Below, piece by piece: positions 20,104-50,325 of a stretch of DNA of 64,000 nt; positions within the stretch are counted from its first letter, which is position 1; each line of letters begins with the position of its first letter. The stretch covers positions 992,001-1,056,000 of the forward strand of contig CAWKNZ010000002.1 of NCBI GenBank assembly GCA_963851265.1. Direction: 5' to 3'. The notes beneath the pieces are model-generated. The model had not been told where the DNA came from. It searched no databases and saw nothing but the letters and a program-made list of their open reading frames with translations. Origin of the DNA: an uncultured Gemmatimonadales bacterium (GTDB lineage: Bacteria; Gemmatimonadota; Gemmatimonadetes; Gemmatimonadales; Gemmatimonadaceae). Position numbers and translations under genes: made by a program.

Positions 20104-20220
20104 GTGAAAGTCCGCAGCAGCGTGAAGCCGATCTGCGAGCACTGCAAGGTCGTGAAGCGCGACGGCGTGACTCGCATCATCTGCTCTCGTAATCCCAAGC
20201 ACAAGCAGCGTCAGGGCTGA
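20104..20220 (+). CDS. rpmJ: 50S ribosomal protein L36 (not in the ORF track)
   Basis: Manual translation [42 protein letters not shown] upstream. Confidence 0.97.
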
Positions 20221-20225
20221 CTGGA

Positions 20226-20603
20226 ATGGCTCGTATCGCAGGCGTCGATCTCCCTCGTGACAAGAAGGTCGAGATCGGGCTCACTTACATTTTCGGCATC
20301 GGCCGCACTACGGCGCTCAAGATCCTCGAAGGTTCGGGGGTGAGTGCCGACCAGCGCGTGCGTGACCTGAGCGACGCGGACGTCGCCCGCCTGCGCGCCG
20401 AGATTGAGCGCAGCCACAAGGTCGAGGGGGCGCTTCGGACCGAGGTGTCCATGAACGTCAAGCGGCTCATGGACATTGGGTCGTATCGCGGCATCCGCCA
20501 CCGTCGCGGGCTGCCGGTGCGCGGCCAGCGGACGCACACGAACGCCCGGACGAAGCGTGGCCCGCGCCGCGCCATCGCCGGCAAGAAGAAGGTCACGAAG
20601 TAA
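20226..20603 (+). CDS. rpsM: 30S ribosomal protein S13
   Basis: [36 protein letters not shown]. Confidence 0.98.
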
Positions 20604-20605
20604 CC

Positions 20606-20983
20606 ATGGCTACCGCGAAGAAGACCAAGAAGGTCGTCGAGGCGGAGGGCGTCGCCCACATTCAGGCGACGTTCAACAACACGACGATCACCATCACCGA
20701 CCCGCGTGGCAACACCGTGTCGTGGGGCTCCTCGGGGAAGGCCGGCTTCAAGGGCTCGAAGAAGAGCACGCCGTTCGCCGCGACCGTCGCCTCCGAGCAG
20801 GCCGCGAAGGAAGCGATGACGGCCGGCGTTCGCCGCGTGCACGTGCGCGTGCAGGGTCCGGGCTCGGGCCGCGAGAGCGCCGTGCAGGCGCTCGCGGCGG
20901 CCGGACTCACGGTCAAGTCCATCAAGGACGTGACGCCGATCGCGCACAACGGTTGCCGGCCGCCCAAGCGGCGGAGGGTCTGA
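20606..20983 (+). CDS. rpsK: 30S ribosomal protein S11
   Basis: [40 protein letters not shown]. Confidence 0.98.
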
Positions 20984-20986
20984 CCG

Positions 20987-21619
20987 ATGCGTTACACGGG
21001 TCCCAGCTGCCGGCAGTGCCGGCGTGAAGGCACCAAGCTGTTTCTGAAAGGGACGAAGTGCTTCACCGAGAAGTGCCCGGTCGAGCGTCGTCCCTACGCT
21101 CCCGGCCAGCACGGCCAGGCGACCGCTCGCCGTCGTAAGGTGAGCGAGTACGCCAAGCAGCTGCGCGAGAAGCAGAAGATCAAGCGCATCTACGGGCTGT
21201 CCGAGCTGCAGTTCCGCAACACGTTCGAACGGGTCGCGACGCAGCAGGGCATCACGGGCCACAACCTGTTGGCCGCGCTCGAGAGCCGGCTCGACAACGT
21301 GATCTACCGCATGGGCTTCGCGCCGAGCCGAAAGGCGGCGCGTCAGCTGATCCGGCACGGGCACGTGGACGTGAAGCAGCGCCGCATGGACGTGCCGAGC
21401 TATCAGGTACGCCCGGGTGAGGAGATCCGCGTGCGCGAGTCGGCGCGTGAGATGCCGCTCGTCGTCGGCGCGATGGACCAATCGTCGCGCGGGGCGCCGC
21501 TCGCCTGGATCGCGGTCGACAAGGAGTCGTTCTCGGGGCGGATGCTCGAGAAGCCGCAGCGCCAGAGCATCCCGATCGCCGCGCAGGAGCAACTGGTCGT
21601 CGAATTGTACAGCAAGTAA
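20987..21619 (+). CDS. rpsD: 30S ribosomal protein S4 (Zn-ribbon type)
   Basis: CRQCRREG...C...C, QLREKQK, LESRLDN, VVELYSK. Confidence 0.98.
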   Translation: MRYTGPSCRQCRREGTKLFLKGTKCFTEKCPVERRPYAPGQHGQATARRRKVSEYAKQLREKQKIKRIYGLSELQFRNTFERVATQQGITGHNLLAALESRLDNVIYRMGFAPSRKAARQLIRHGHVDVKQRRMDVPSYQVRPGEEIRVRESAREMPLVVGAMDQSSRGAPLAWIAVDKESFSGRMLEKPQRQSIPIAAQEQLVVELYSK

Positions 21620-21929
21620 CGGCCGTTGCAGGGCTGCGCTCCGGAATGTCGTTCCGAGGGCATGCAGCGACCGAAGGATCGCTGTCCCTGCACGCAGTTC
21701 CGCGCGGCGTCGTCCGTGCCGGCGCTGTGAGCCCGGGCAGCGATCCTTCGCTGCGATCGGGGCGAGGGGTTTCAGAAGCACACATTACGCACGACCGTCG
21801 GACTGCACGACCGTAGTACCTGATTCACAGGTCGGGACCTTCACTCCCCAACGAGCCTGCCGCGCGTGAAGGGCGGGGCAGGGCGTCGCCTGGTCGTACA
21901 GACCGGGTGAGACCAATCCACGAGACATC
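21620..21929 (+). ncRNA. Candidate structured cis-regulatory RNA between rpsD and rpoA
   Basis: 310-nt spacer with multiple hairpins and a 7/7 complementary loop pair, CCTTCAC (21838-21844) and GTGAAGG (21866-21872). Confidence 0.55.
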
Positions 21930-22991
21930 ATGGCAGCAATCGATCTTCGCGGGCTCGTTCGCCCGCAACTCGTCGAATCGACGAAGCGCGACGACCAGCC
22001 CAACGTGGCCGAGTTCCGACTGCAGCCGCTCGAGCGCGGCTTCGGTCACACGCTCGGTAACGCCATGCGGCGGCTCCTGCTGTCGTCGCTGCGCGGCGCC
22101 GCCGTGTGGGGCTTCCGCATCGACGGCGTCCTCCACGAGCACCAGACCATTCCGGGCGTCGTCGAGGACGTGCACCAGATCATCGGTCAGCTCAAGACGC
22201 TCGTGCTCGCGCTCGACGCCGACGTTGACACGTCGGTGCTGCGCATCCGCAAGACCGAATCGGGTCCGGTCACGGGCGCGGACATCCAGCAGGCGCCGGG
22301 CGTGCGGGTCGTCGACCCGTCGCACCACATCCTGACCCTGCAGGAGGACCGCGAGCTCAACGTCGAGCTCTACGTCAACAAGGGCCGCGGCTACGTCGAG
22401 AGCGACCAGCACCCGGTCGACCGCGGACTGCCGGTCGACCTCGTGCGCATCGACGCGATCTACAACCCCGTGCGCCGCGCCAATTTCTCGGTTGCCGAGA
22501 CTCGCGTGGGGCAGCGGACCGACTACGACCGCCTGACGCTCACCGTCGAGACGAACGGCACGCTCTCGCCCGAGGAGGCCGTGAGCTACGCCGCCGCCCT
22601 GGCGCAGACGCATTTCCAGTACTTCGCGAGCTTCGGCCCGCACGGCGGGAGCAGCAACGGGACCGCGCTCGAGGGCGGCGACGCCCGCCGGACGGCCGAG
22701 CTGCTGCGCACGCCGATCGACGACCTCGAGTTGTCCGTGCGGAGTGTGAACTCGCTCAAGAACTCGAGCGTCCGTACGCTCGGGGACCTGGTTCGTCTCA
22801 ACGAGAGCCAGATTTTGCAGGTCAAGAACTTCGGCAAGAAGTCCCTCCAGGAGATCGCCGACCTCCTCGAGCGCGAGGGACTCAACTTTGGCATGCGCTA
22901 CGAGGAGACCGGCGAAGGCGTGCGGATCACCGATTGGGGAACCGCACCGAGCCGCGCCGCCGCGAACGCGCCTGAAGACGACGAGGATTAG
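21930..22991 (+). CDS. rpoA: RNA polymerase subunit alpha
   Basis: [54 protein letters not shown]. Confidence 0.98.
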
Positions 22992-22999
22992 GAACCACC

Positions 23000-23353
23000 A
23001 TGCGTCACCGGAAGGCCGGACGGCAGCTCCGCCGCACGAGTGAGCAGCGCCTCGCGCTGCTCCGCAACCTCGCGACCTCGCTCATCGAGCAGGGCGCCAT
23101 CGAGACCACCGAGGCCAAGGCCAAGGAGCTCCGTCCCTTCGTCGAGAAGCTCGTGACGAAGGCGCGGCGCGGTACCCTGCACGCGCGCCGCCTCGCGGGC
23201 CGCCACGTGCAGAAGCGCGAGGCCGCGGACAAGCTGTTCCAGGAGTGGGGCCCGAAGTTCGCGGCCCGGCCGGGCGGCTACACCCGCATCCTCAAGACCG
23301 GCCACCGTCGCGGCGACGGGGCCGAGATGGCGCGGATCGAGTTCGTCAGCTGA
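23000..23353 (+). CDS. rplQ: 50S ribosomal protein L17
   Basis: [28 protein letters not shown]...RRGDGAEMA. Confidence 0.98.
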
Positions 23354-23368
23354 CCGGAGACGCATTCC

Positions 23369-24659
<1,291 letters not shown>

Positions 24660-49123: not shown

Positions 49124-50325
49124 ACACGGCGACTCTCGCCAGCGCCGACGCGCCGGCATATCGCGCGCGCATCGCGCGCGGCATTTCGGTTTCCGGCGTC
49201 GCGCACGCGTGCGTCATCGTGGGCGCGGTCCTCGTTGCGCGCGCGCATCCGGCACGCACGGTCCCACCCGTCTACCGGGTGTCGCTAGTCGCCGCACCGG
49301 CGGGGGGCCGCGGCGCCCGAATCGCAACGGGCGCGACCGCACCCGCACGAGACGTCACCGCGCGGAACTCCGGGACGGCGATCGCGGCGCCCACGGCGCC
49401 CGACCTGGCGGGAGCGCGGCCGAAGGCGGCGACCGCGACGCCGCACTCGCTCATCGCGGAGCCGAAGGCCGCGGTGCGGCCGAGTACACCGCACCCTGGA
49501 ACGCATCCGACGTCGGCCGCGCACCCGCTCGGGGCGGCTCCGCACGTGCCGGCGCCGTCGCTCGCGCCGTCGCACGGAGCTCGTACACCGGCTCCGAACT
49601 TGGCGGCGTCGCACGCGTCCTCGGCGCGCATCGCTCCGTCGCGCGCGCCGGCAACGCCCGAACGACCTGCTCCGGCGCCCACCGCGCCCCCTCGGTACGT
49701 GGCCGCGACTCCGCGCGCGACGCACGCGGCGCCGTCACTGCCGCACACGAGCCCTGCGCCGTCGATTAAGCCCGCGTCGCGACCGAGCGCGTCGACTGCA
49801 TCGAGCGCGTCGACCTCGCGCGACGCGTCGACTCGTACGCGACGGGCTGTCGCGAGTTCGGCAACGTCGGAGACGCCCGAGGAGAACTCCGGATCGCGCG
49901 GGGCCACGTCGTCCCGCGCGGCACCCGCGCCGCAGACCGCGGCCCACCCCGCGGGCTCCGGCACCGAACATGGGGCGGGTACGGCAGCGGCCCGCGGACA
50001 CGACGTCGCCGACGCCCGCGTCGTCGGACTCGAGTTTCCGTATCCGGGGTACCTCGCGAACCTCGTGCGGCAGGTGCGGCTTCGCTTCGCGCCGTCGGAG
50101 GCGCGTGCCGGACTTCACGCCGACCTCGCTTTCATCGTCGCCCGCGACGGGTCGATCACTGACATCCGCGTCGTGCGAAGCTCGGGCAACTACGCGTTCG
50201 ACCTCGAAGCGCAGGGCGCCGTCGAGGCCGCGGGGTCCGCGCGCGCCTTCGGTCCGCTCCCCGACGCGTTCCGACCGTCCTCGCTTCCCGTGAATTTCAG
50301 CTTCGATCCGCGCACCGCCCCGTGA
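49120..50325 (+). CDS. TolA/TonB-like energy transducer
   Basis: N-terminal TM helix with S-x3-H, long Pro/Ala/Ser/Thr linker, TonB_C-like domain (SSGNYAFD). Confidence 0.8.
   Translation: MNTATLASADAPAYRARIARGISVSGVAHACVIVGAVLVARAHPARTVPPVYRVSLVAAPAGGRGARIATGATAPARDVTARNSGTAIAAPTAPDLAGARPKAATATPHSLIAEPKAAVRPSTPHPGTHPTSAAHPLGAAPHVPAPSLAPSHGARTPAPNLAASHASSARIAPSRAPATPERPAPAPTAPPRYVAATPRATHAAPSLPHTSPAPSIKPASRPSASTASSASTSRDASTRTRRAVASSATSETPEENSGSRGATSSRAAPAPQTAAHPAGSGTEHGAGTAAARGHDVADARVVGLEFPYPGYLANLVRQVRLRFAPSEARAGLHADLAFIVARDGSITDIRVVRSSGNYAFDLEAQGAVEAAGSARAFGPLPDAFRPSSLPVNFSFDPRTAP

What the first reader, a model, noticed from the sequence alone, without database searches (positions are those of the whole stretch)
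21818..21914. Kissing-loop RNA module immediately upstream of rpoA
Seen: hairpin A is GGGA-[CCTTCAC]-TCCC (21834-21848). Hairpin B is CCTGCC.CGC-[GTGAAGG]-GCG.GGCAGG (21856-21882). Their 7-nt loops are exact reverse complements over the whole loop. Hairpin C (TCGCCTGGTC-gtaca-GACCGGGTGA, 21886-21910) follows. GGTC (21830-33) / GACC (21911-14) could close a multiway junction ending 15 nt before the rpoA ATG, and a competing hairpin ACCTG-attca-CAGGT (21818-21832) would disrupt that helix. Known: rpsD and rpoA are usually closely spaced, and ribosomal-protein operons are often autoregulated by structured leaders. Inference: a cis-regulatory RNA I cannot assign to a known family, possibly controlling rpoA-rplQ-rpmB separately from rpsMKD by binding S4, L17, L28 or RNA polymerase.
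Basis: partly seen in the sequence, partly recalled or inferred. Interest (0 to 1): 0.8.

Follow-up and report, generated by a model that had tools for sequence, protein, structure and literature searches.

The report
Conserved kissing-loop RNA leader before rpoA
Just upstream of the RNA polymerase alpha-subunit gene lies a folded RNA of about 85 bases whose two hairpin loops pair with each other; nearly every genome of one bacterial family has it, no catalogue lists it, and it probably controls how much of the downstream proteins is made.

Summary
Window 21830-21914 is a four-way junction. It has a closing helix P1 (GGUC/GACC) and hairpins A, B and C, and the 7-nt loops of A and B pair with each other.

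In 100 homologues all five helices covary. The loop-loop helix was not part of the search model. It is 99.5% paired, and 6 of its 7 pairs change on both sides.

The element is single-copy. It lies 14-33 nt upstream of the rpoA start in 95 of 100 hits. I found it in 141 of the 142 sampled genomes of the window's family that hold the rpoA 5' end. The family is most likely Gemmatimonadaceae. I found it in 0 of 119 genomes of 11 other families of the phylum, apart from one false hit. In sister families rpsD and rpoA are 10 nt or less apart.

Rfam 15 has no match, and I found no description in print. Hairpins A and B with their kissing loops form the conserved core; P1 and hairpin C are missing in some genera.

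Function is inferred only. The most likely role is a protein-bound translational operator for rpoA-rplQ-rpmB, with L17 or L28 favoured as ligand.

The parts
21830..21914 (+). Whole conserved element: four-way junction RNA with kissing loops
   Evidence: Covariance model R1 match, 98.5 bits. This is the only part of the 310-nt spacer conserved across genera.
21830..21833 (+). P1 5' strand (GGUC), pairs with 21911-21914
   Evidence: 97.6% of cells paired; all 4 pairs show two-sided changes in 96 distinct sequences. Absent in the minimal variants.
21834..21848 (+). Hairpin A: 4-bp stem GGGA/UCCC, 7-nt loop 21838-21844 (CCUUCAC)
   Evidence: Stem 99.2% paired, all 4 pairs covary; same result on a MAFFT alignment not fitted to the model.
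21849..21855 (+). Linker A-B (CAACGAG), with near-invariant A-C-G
   Evidence: Column counts: A 82, C 94, G 92 of 96 distinct rows.
21856..21882 (+). Hairpin B: CCUGCC / G.G mismatch (21862, 21876) / CGC, 7-nt loop 21866-21872 (GUGAAGG)
   Evidence: Outer pairs covary, inner CGC/GCG is invariant, and the mismatch is purine-purine in 96 of 96 rows.
21838..21872 (+). Loop-loop (kissing) helix: 21838-21844 pairs with 21866-21872
   Evidence: 99.5% paired; 6 of 7 pairs have two-sided changes; 0 of 500 shuffles reach this; slid partners pair in 21-64% of cells. This helix was not part of model R1.
21883..21885 (+). Linker B-C (GCG), near-invariant
   Evidence: G 89, C 93, G 95 of 96 rows.
21886..21910 (+). 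Hairpin C: 10-bp stem, loop GUACA. Sequence varies, the hairpin is kept.
   Evidence: All 8 modelled pairs show two-sided changes, 89% paired. Missing in some genera.
21911..21914 (+). P1 3' strand (GACC)
   Evidence: See the P1 5' strand.
21915..21932 (+). Ribosome-binding region and rpoA start codon (ATG at 21930)
   Evidence: In 89 full-length relatives a purine-rich Shine-Dalgarno-like run appears (by eye) to begin about 0-9 nt after P1. The element-to-start distance is 14-33 nt in 95 of 100.
20987..21619 (+). rpsD (S4), upstream gene
   Evidence: ORF. rpsD lies upstream of the element in 97 of 100 relatives.
21930..22991 (+). rpoA, first gene downstream of the element
   Evidence: ORF. 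rpoA lies downstream in 100 of 100.
23000..23353 (+). rplQ (L17)
   Evidence: ORF. Follows rpoA in 23 of 23 family genomes checked.
23369..23590 (+). rpmB (L28), co-directional last gene of the unit
   Evidence: ORF. Co-directional after rplQ in 23 of 23 family genomes; on the opposite strand in 5 of 5 sister-family genomes.
21620..21829 (+). Non-conserved 5' part of the spacer, including a long palindrome at 21672-21750. Not part of the element.
   Evidence: No conservation beyond the genus. Inverted repeat I1. In relatives the gap from the rpsD stop to the element ranges from 0 to 210 nt.

Best explanation
Window 21830-21914 encodes a cis-acting structured segment of the rpsD-rpoA intercistronic mRNA. 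It is specific to one bacterial family, most likely Gemmatimonadaceae.

Shown: the RNA folds into a four-way junction (P1, hairpins A, B, C) in which the complete 7-nt loops of A and B pair with each other. Hairpins A and B with their kissing loops, the ACG linker and a purine-purine mismatch in stem B form the invariant core.

Inferred: the Shine-Dalgarno region of rpoA begins right after the fold, and the fold itself does not sequester it. So the element most likely works as a translational operator of the ribosomal-protein-leader type. A protein made from the unit it precedes (rpoA-rplQ-rpmB), when in excess over its normal partner, would bind the folded RNA. That would block or trap the 30S subunit at the rpoA start and lower translation of rpoA and of the closely following rplQ and rpmB. 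L17 or L28 are the favoured ligands.

My confidence that this is a genuine conserved kissing-loop RNA is about 0.95. The figure below is for the operator mechanism with an L17 or L28 ligand.
For: Structure:
- All five helices covary in 96 distinct sequences: 96.7% of cells paired, 27 of 32 pairs with two-sided changes, 0 of 500 shuffles as high, slid controls 39-52% paired.
- The loop-loop helix was not in the search model and still gives 99.5% paired, with 6 of 7 pairs covarying.
- The same holds on a MAFFT alignment of 73 sequences.

Position:
- rpoA lies downstream in 100 of 100 hits, 14-33 nt away in 95.
- A Shine-Dalgarno-like run follows P1 by about 0-9 nt, judged by eye.
- The element stays with rpoA in 2 genomes where rpsD has left the operon.

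One copy per genome.

Distribution:
- Model R1 hits 139 of 151 family genomes. Two more carry the A+B core. Nine lack any detectable rpoA 5' end. One (G046) has rpoA without the element.
- 0 of 119 genomes of 11 other families with R1, and 1 false hit of 119 with R2.
- Sister families have rpsD and rpoA 10 nt or less apart, so the element came with a loss of tight coupling.

No room for a promoter or terminator: in several genomes only 0-10 nt separate the rpsD stop from P1, so the element must be read as part of a polycistronic RNA. RNA-seq contigs of 4 runs from 4 studies run unbroken from rpsD through the element into rpoA in one family member.

The ribosome-binding site is not sequestered by the fold: mean unpaired probability is 0.573 native against 0.540 with the element shuffled. 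No promoter or terminator consensus was found. Both points favour a trans-acting factor.

Precedents: S4 represses the E. coli alpha operon through an mRNA pseudoknot (passages of PMC10931766). An L17 leader has been predicted upstream of rplQ (passages of PMC7247131).

rpmB is co-directional after rplQ in 23 of 23 family genomes but convergent in 5 of 5 sister-family genomes.
Against: - No binding, probing or expression data exist; the function rests on position and analogy.
- No resemblance to the organism's own 16S or 23S rRNA beyond chance (best E 0.26 for 10 nt), so the usual mimicry argument for a ribosomal-protein ligand is missing.
- Repressing rpoA together with two large-subunit proteins is not an obvious regulatory logic.
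- G046 keeps rpoA-rplQ-rpmB without the element.
- The first gene after the element is not a ribosomal-protein gene.
- Sterically, a 7-nt linker must connect stem A to the far end of a 10-bp stem B while both loops pair fully. Whether all three helices coexist, perhaps by bending at the purine-purine mismatch, or alternate, was not testable.
- RNA-seq was available only as contigs, which cannot show transcript ends or a single transcript.
Confidence: 0.42

Rival explanations
1. A ligand-free structural element. The rigid fold would insulate the rpoA ribosome-binding site from the GC-rich, variable spacer, or set a fixed translation rate or mRNA half-life for rpoA-rplQ-rpmB after tight coupling to rpsD was lost. 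It could also mark a processing site or protect the downstream RNA's 5' end.
For: - The ribosome-binding window is slightly more open with the native element than with a shuffled one (0.573 against 0.540; higher in 64 of 89).
- The spacer 5' of the element is highly variable and carries inserted repeats and hairpins.
- Sister families need no such element because rpsD and rpoA abut.
Against: - An insulator or stabiliser would not need invariant unpaired nucleotides (ACG, GCG), an invariant CGC/GCG stem, an always purine-purine mismatch, or a covarying 7-bp loop-loop helix.
- The accessibility effect is small, and the sequences are related.
Confidence: 0.2
2. An S4 (rpsD) operator. Excess S4 would bind the element and repress the distal genes of the alpha operon, as a second S4 site.
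For: - S4 is the established repressor of the alpha operon in E. coli, and a second S4 site near rpoA-rplQ was proposed long ago (passages and reference list of PMC10931766).
- S4 leaders predicted in other phyla list rpoA and rplQ among the regulated genes (Table 1 of PMC7247131).
- rpsD is the upstream neighbour in 97 of 100.
Against: - The element lies after rpsD, so it cannot autoregulate rpsD itself.
- It is retained in 2 genomes whose operon lacks rpsD and whose only S4 homologue is 44-45% identical and lies elsewhere, with no second copy of the element there.
- No similarity to 16S rRNA beyond chance, and no Alpha_RBS match on the element.
Confidence: 0.12
3. An autoregulatory site for the RNA polymerase alpha subunit or for an RNA polymerase assembly intermediate. 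This would be feedback on rpoA by its own product.
For: rpoA is the gene immediately controlled in 100 of 100, and the element follows rpoA when rpsD is lost.
Against: I found no precedent for alpha binding mRNA in the passages shown by the searches. By recall, alpha binds DNA UP elements and proteins, not RNA. Nothing here tests it.
Confidence: 0.07
4. A riboswitch or other small-molecule or ion sensor that tunes RNA polymerase and ribosome synthesis, for example in response to a growth-rate signal.
For: Compact junction with near-invariant unpaired nucleotides and a tertiary loop-loop contact, as in several aptamers (recalled). Sits directly before a ribosome-binding site.
Against: - No expression platform: no terminator-like site, no conserved alternative pairing with the 5' flank, and the ribosome-binding site is not sequestered.
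- The gene context is not metabolic.
- One copy per genome and one family only.
Confidence: 0.07

Closest known systems
E. coli alpha-operon S4 translational operator (Rfam RF00140, Alpha_RBS)
   Same: A pseudoknotted mRNA structure next to a ribosome-binding site in the same conserved gene cluster (rpsM-rpsK-rpsD-rpoA-rplQ). An operon-encoded protein represses translation through it (passages of PMC10931766).
   Different: That operator sits at the rpsM start, not before rpoA, and is a nested double pseudoknot (recalled), not a four-way junction with kissing hairpin loops. cmscan gives no match on the element; the only Alpha_RBS hit is 14.6 bits (cut-off 38) at 20218-20258. The ligand here is unknown.
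Predicted L17 ribosomal-protein leader of Actino- and Proteobacteria (Eckert and Weinberg 2020, PMC7247131)
   Same: A candidate leader for a unit containing rplQ, supported by covariation only, with the ligand inferred from gene context (passages).
   Different: That motif precedes rplQ alone and occurs in other phyla. Here the element precedes rpoA. No Rfam family, including the ribosomal leaders deposited there, matches. I did not see its structure drawing, so the folds were compared only through cmscan.
Fully paired 7-nt loop-loop ('kissing') complexes, e.g. ColE1 RNA I/RNA II recognised by Rop (recalled, not from a call)
   Same: Two hairpins whose entire 7-nt loops form a 7-bp helix. There is precedent for a protein reading the shape of such a complex.
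   Different: Those are intermolecular antisense pairs on plasmids. Here both hairpins lie in one mRNA, 7 nt apart, inside a junction.
Riboswitch aptamers organised by intramolecular loop-loop contacts (purine riboswitch L2-L3; guanidine-II hairpin pair; recalled, not from a call)
   Same: Adjacent hairpins in one leader, held together by loop-loop pairing just upstream of a ribosome-binding site.
   Different: Those use 2-4 loop pairs and bind metabolites, with an expression platform. Here there are 7 pairs, no platform was found, and the context is an RNA polymerase and ribosomal-protein unit.

Membership tests
Any Rfam 15 family (4227 models) | cmscan score at or above the family's gathering score | tested here: not met
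   No hit on 21830-21914 at E up to 10 in a 5-kb scan. In a 156-nt scan the only hit is a 12-nt serC-leader match of 12.7 bits against a cut-off of 35.
Alpha_RBS (S4 operator of the alpha operon) | Located at the rpsM translation start | tested here: not met
   The element lies between rpsD and rpoA.
Alpha_RBS (S4 operator of the alpha operon) | Binds S4 | not testable with these tools
   No binding assay possible. Indirect evidence against: the element persists where the operon's rpsD is gone.
Ribosomal-protein leader (functional class) | Conserved structure with covariation, directly upstream of a unit containing ribosomal-protein genes | tested here: met
   covariation; rpoA-rplQ-rpmB downstream.
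Ribosomal-protein leader (functional class) | Bound by a ribosomal protein encoded in the regulated unit, with repression of translation | not testable with these tools
   Needs binding and reporter experiments.
Ribosomal-protein leader (functional class) | Resemblance to the protein's rRNA site (frequent, not obligatory) | tested here: inconclusive
   blastn-short and motif search against the genome's own 16S and 23S rRNA gave only short matches with E of 0.26 or higher. Structural mimicry could escape this test.
Kissing-hairpin (loop-loop) pseudoknot | Both hairpin stems supported independently | tested here: met
   Stem A: 4 of 4 pairs covary. Stem B: 5 of 9 covary, 3 invariant.
Kissing-hairpin (loop-loop) pseudoknot | Loop-loop complementarity maintained by compensatory change | tested here: met
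   6 of 7 pairs with two-sided changes, 99.5% paired, 21 different fully complementary loop pairs.
Kissing-hairpin (loop-loop) pseudoknot | All three helices form at the same time in the RNA | not testable with these tools
   Needs chemical probing or a 3D structure. The 7-nt linker makes the geometry non-trivial.
Riboswitch | Expression platform: terminator, or alternative pairing that hides the ribosome-binding site | tested here: not met
   No terminator-like site. The upstream competing hairpin is at chance level. The ribosome-binding site is not sequestered.
tRNA-like element | Recognised as a tRNA or tmRNA cloverleaf | tested here: not met
   ARAGORN finds nothing in 21600-21960. The minimal variants lack P1 and hairpin C.

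The most novel reading that the evidence does not exclude
The element is the first dedicated RNA sensor controlling synthesis of the RNA polymerase alpha subunit. The kissing-loop junction would be read directly by alpha, by an RNA polymerase assembly intermediate, or by a small growth-rate signal, rather than by a ribosomal protein. That would give this family an RNA-based feedback on RNA polymerase dosage with no known counterpart.
Probability: 0.13. Interest if true: 0.8.

Novelty: new variant of a known kind. Interest (0 to 1): 0.62.

Why it matters
Structured leaders in ribosomal-protein operons are a known kind, but I found none described directly in front of rpoA. A junction organised by a complete 7-bp intramolecular loop-loop helix also seems an unusual design for such a leader; this is from recall.

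The motif is near-universal and single-copy in a large, poorly studied family that is abundant in soils and waters. It arose together with a rearrangement of the alpha operon: a spacer was inserted and rpmB was turned into the unit.

It offers three things. It is a compact natural kissing-loop RNA for structural work. It is a handle on how RNA polymerase and ribosome synthesis are balanced outside model phyla. It is also a candidate new Rfam family whose ligand can be found with simple pull-downs, because cultured members with RNA-seq data exist.

Tried and rejected
- **Rfam.** No family matches.
- **rRNA mimicry.** I compared the element with the genome's own 23S and 16S rRNA by blastn-short and motif search. 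Only chance-level short matches came up.
- **Competing hairpin 21818-21832.** It is present in 4 of 5 spacers of the window's genus with the same stem. Across 89 full-length relatives, the P1 5' strand pairs with upstream sequence in 34 cases, against 41.5 expected from shuffles. I rejected it as a conserved switch.
- **Promoter or terminator consensus in 20900-22100.** None found. The scan covers only sigma-70-type and U-tract sites.
- **tRNA-like reading.** ARAGORN finds nothing.
- **Ancestral copy upstream of the free-standing rpmB of sister families.** Nothing similar was seen by eye in 5 loci.
- **Hit outside the family.** The R2 hit in G315 (38.1 bits) is not near rpoA or rpsD and has no loop complementarity, so it is a false positive.
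- **Pattern scan of genome contigs.** Of the 80 loci listed (out of 120 stretches), 9 are true hits by R1 and 71 are chance. It served only to name the lineage. The other 40 stretches were not examined.
- **RNA-seq.** Only assembled contigs were available. They bridge rpsD, the element and rpoA but cannot show transcript starts, ends or a single transcript.
- **Ribosome-binding-site accessibility.** The effect was small.
- **Earlier notes of this scan.** Nothing by place, sequence or words.
- **Literature.** Five full-text searches and term look-ups in four papers found no description of an rpoA leader in this lineage. Supplements were not opened.

Full report
**What is in the window.** The window carries rpsM (20226-20603), rpsK (20606-20983), rpsD (20987-21619), a 310-nt spacer, rpoA (21930-22991), rplQ (23000-23353) and rpmB (23369-23590), all on the + strand. 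Every string and coordinate in the finding is correct:
- P1: GGTC 21830-33 with GACC 21911-14.
- Hairpin A: 21834-48.
- Hairpin B: 21856-82, with a G.G mismatch at 21862/21876.
- Hairpin C: 21886-21910.
- The two 7-nt loops (21838-44 and 21866-72) are exact reverse complements.
- 15 nt separate P1 from the ATG.

On its own this is weak evidence. 7-nt inverted repeats are common in the spacer. The 112-nt segment folds only mildly better than shuffles (z -2.07). The nested minimum-free-energy fold does not even contain hairpin A.

**Conservation.** I ran blastn with the whole spacer against 41 relatives. Outside the window's genus, only the stretch around hairpins A and B is conserved (spacer positions about 174-274, window about 21793-21893). 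This held in 5 further genera. In all 10 loci recovered, the match lies between rpsD and rpoA, in spacers of 144-310 nt. The loops already differed between genera while staying complementary.

From these 10 sequences I built covariance model R1, containing P1 and hairpins A, B and C but no pseudoknot. One of the 10 (G011) is an unpublished genome.

**Distribution.**
- R1 finds one match per genome in 139 of 151 genomes of the window's family f1. One genome has two, on separate contigs.
- In the order: f1 59 of 62, f2 0 of 61, f3 0 of 27.
- In the phylum: f1 28 of 31, and 11 other families 0 of 119.
- A second model of the A+B core alone (R2) gives f1 30 of 31 and one weak hit among the same 119. 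That hit is not near rpoA or rpsD and has no loop complementarity, so it is a false positive.

Of the 12 f1 genomes missed by R1:
- Two (G092, G143) carry the A+B core without P1 and hairpin C.
- Nine have no detectable rpoA 5' end in the assembly.
- One (G046) has rpoA behind a 137-nt spacer without the element.

So 141 of the 142 sampled family genomes that hold the rpoA 5' end have the element.

Five genomes of the two sister families have rpsD and rpoA overlapping or at most 10 nt apart. The spacer and the element are therefore an innovation of f1.

Named public records that match R1 number 9 of the 80 listed loci of a loose pattern scan. All 9 are labelled Gemmatimonadaceae, Gemmatimonadales or Gemmatimonadetes; the other 71 are chance matches in GC-rich genomes. 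So f1 is most likely Gemmatimonadaceae.

**Structure.** I aligned 100 hits to R1 to give alignment A3. This was 100 of the 109 published loci I held by then; I left out 9 near-duplicates from genera already represented, and I excluded the unpublished G011 locus.
- Whole structure, 96 distinct rows: 96.7% of cells form standard pairs, 27 of 32 pairs have changes on both sides, 0 of 500 shuffles reach any measure, and sliding the partners by 1-3 columns drops pairing to 39-52%.
- Loop-loop helix, which the model did not contain: 99.5% paired, 6 of 7 pairs with two-sided changes, 84 such cells against 18.5 expected, slid controls 21-64%.
- 90 of 100 sequences have all 7 loop pairs and 7 have 6. 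The remaining 3 include one cut by a contig end and one mis-aligned by the model. There are 21 different fully complementary loop pairs.
- A MAFFT alignment of the core, not fitted to any model, gives the same picture at 99.5% paired. It has 73 rows: 72 of the 84 distinct core segments, after dropping 12 that have indels, plus G143.

Unpaired positions are also constrained, out of 96 rows:
- A-C-G in the A-B linker: 82, 94 and 92.
- GCG after hairpin B: 89, 93 and 95.
- The inner CGC/GCG of stem B is invariant.
- The mismatch in stem B is always purine-purine: G.G 80, G.A 12, A.G 2, A.A 2.

Some genera lack P1 and hairpin C and go from hairpin B straight to the Shine-Dalgarno region. So A+B with the kissing loops is the core.

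**Context.**
- rpoA follows in 100 of 100 hits. The distance from the element to the start is 14-33 nt in 95; in the other 5, which are minimal variants, the model alignment runs into the start region.
- By eye, a purine-rich Shine-Dalgarno-like run begins about 0-9 nt after P1.
- rpsD precedes in 97 of 100. One locus is cut by a contig end. In two (G057, G093) rpsK is the direct neighbour, and the only S4 homologue, 44-45% identical, lies elsewhere. The element goes with rpoA, not with rpsD.
- The gap from the rpsD stop to the element ranges from 0 to 210 nt, and is 0-10 nt in several genomes. This leaves no room for a promoter or terminator, so the element is part of a polycistronic RNA there.
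- rplQ and a co-directional rpmB follow rpoA in 23 of 23 family genomes checked. In 5 of 5 sister-family genomes rpmB is on the opposite strand.

**Transcription.** For one complete family genome (G212, locus L280) the operon maps as rpsM, rpsK, rpsD, then a 10-nt gap, the element, rpoA, rplQ and rpmB.
- 16 RNA-seq runs of one organism, from 4 studies, hold at least 77% of the sampled words of this 5-kb stretch.
- I laid the contigs of 4 runs, one per study. Three cover all 5 kb in one piece. In the fourth, one contig (depth 44) runs from beyond rpsM to 66 nt past the last aligned rpmB residue, just after a hairpin followed by TTGTGT (read by eye). Beyond that point cover is patchy, at depth 5-9.
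- This fits a highly expressed unit that includes the element and ends after rpmB. Contigs cannot prove a single transcript or show RNA ends.

**Mechanism.** Shown: a conserved fold with a tertiary loop-loop helix, abutting the rpoA ribosome-binding site, inside an mRNA. Secondary-structure prediction does not hide the ribosome-binding site (unpaired probability 0.573 native against 0.540 shuffled). No terminator-like or promoter-like site is present.

Inferred: a trans-acting factor reads the folded RNA and blocks or traps the 30S subunit, as in ribosomal-protein leaders. I favour L17 or L28 because they are the ribosomal proteins of the controlled unit, because an L17 leader has been predicted elsewhere (PMC7247131, passages), and because rpmB joined the unit in this family. 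S4, alpha or RNA polymerase, a metabolite, and a ligand-free structural role remain open. I found no rRNA mimicry to point to a ligand.

The geometry is an open point. A 7-nt linker must join stem A to the base of a 10-bp stem B. The invariant purine-purine mismatch could be the hinge, but that is speculation.

**Comparison and novelty.** No Rfam 15 family matches. The E. coli S4 operator lies at rpsM and has a different fold. The predicted L17 leader lies before rplQ in other phyla. I found no paper describing an rpoA leader in this lineage (searches; term look-ups; supplements not opened). I rate it a new, structurally distinct variant of the known kind 'structured leader of a translation or transcription-machinery operon', well supported as an RNA structure and untested as to function.

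Noticed in passing
window 21672-21750 (arms 21672-21702 / 21720-21750); also window 49328-49383: A long imperfect palindrome in the non-conserved part of the spacer folds into a hairpin of about 77 nt. Related copies occur at 9 other places in a congeneric genome (G004), but only 2 weak ones in the window's own genome. It looks like a dispersed REP- or MITE-like palindromic repeat inserted between rpsD and the element.
   Followed up: partly
window 23369-23590 (rpmB); loci L072-L076 and L257-L279: rpmB (L28) is co-directional right after rplQ in 23 of 23 family genomes but on the opposite strand in 5 of 5 sister-family genomes. The gene was turned into the rpoA-rplQ unit in the same lineage that gained the element.
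   Followed up: partly
L026 (G057), L049 (G093), L298, L299: Two family genomes have rpsK directly upstream of the element and no rpsD in the operon. Their only S4 homologue is 44-45% identical to the window's and lies elsewhere. This may be a replacement of the native S4 gene.
   Followed up: partly
window 21789-21819: A tandem direct repeat of 15 nt (GCACGACCGTCGGAC / GCACGACCGTAGTAC, 87% identical) lies just upstream of the element.
   Followed up: no
L076 (sister-family genome G026), upstream of rpmB: A run of GGGGTTA-like repeats (four G4 tracts) lies in the intergenic region before rpmB. It has G-quadruplex potential.
   Followed up: no
window 20218-20258: A weak, non-significant Alpha_RBS (S4 operator) hit at the rpsM start: 14.6 bits against a cut-off of 38, E 5.7. 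Whether this lineage has an S4 operator there is open.
   Followed up: no
L280 about 1080-1150 (G212): A GC-rich hairpin followed by TTGTGT lies after rpmB, and one RNA-seq contig ends right after it. It is a likely 3' end of the unit.
   Followed up: partly
window 23369-23590: The L28 encoded here has two CxxC pairs (CYVC and CTGC), which by recall marks the zinc-ribbon form of the protein (translation).
   Followed up: no
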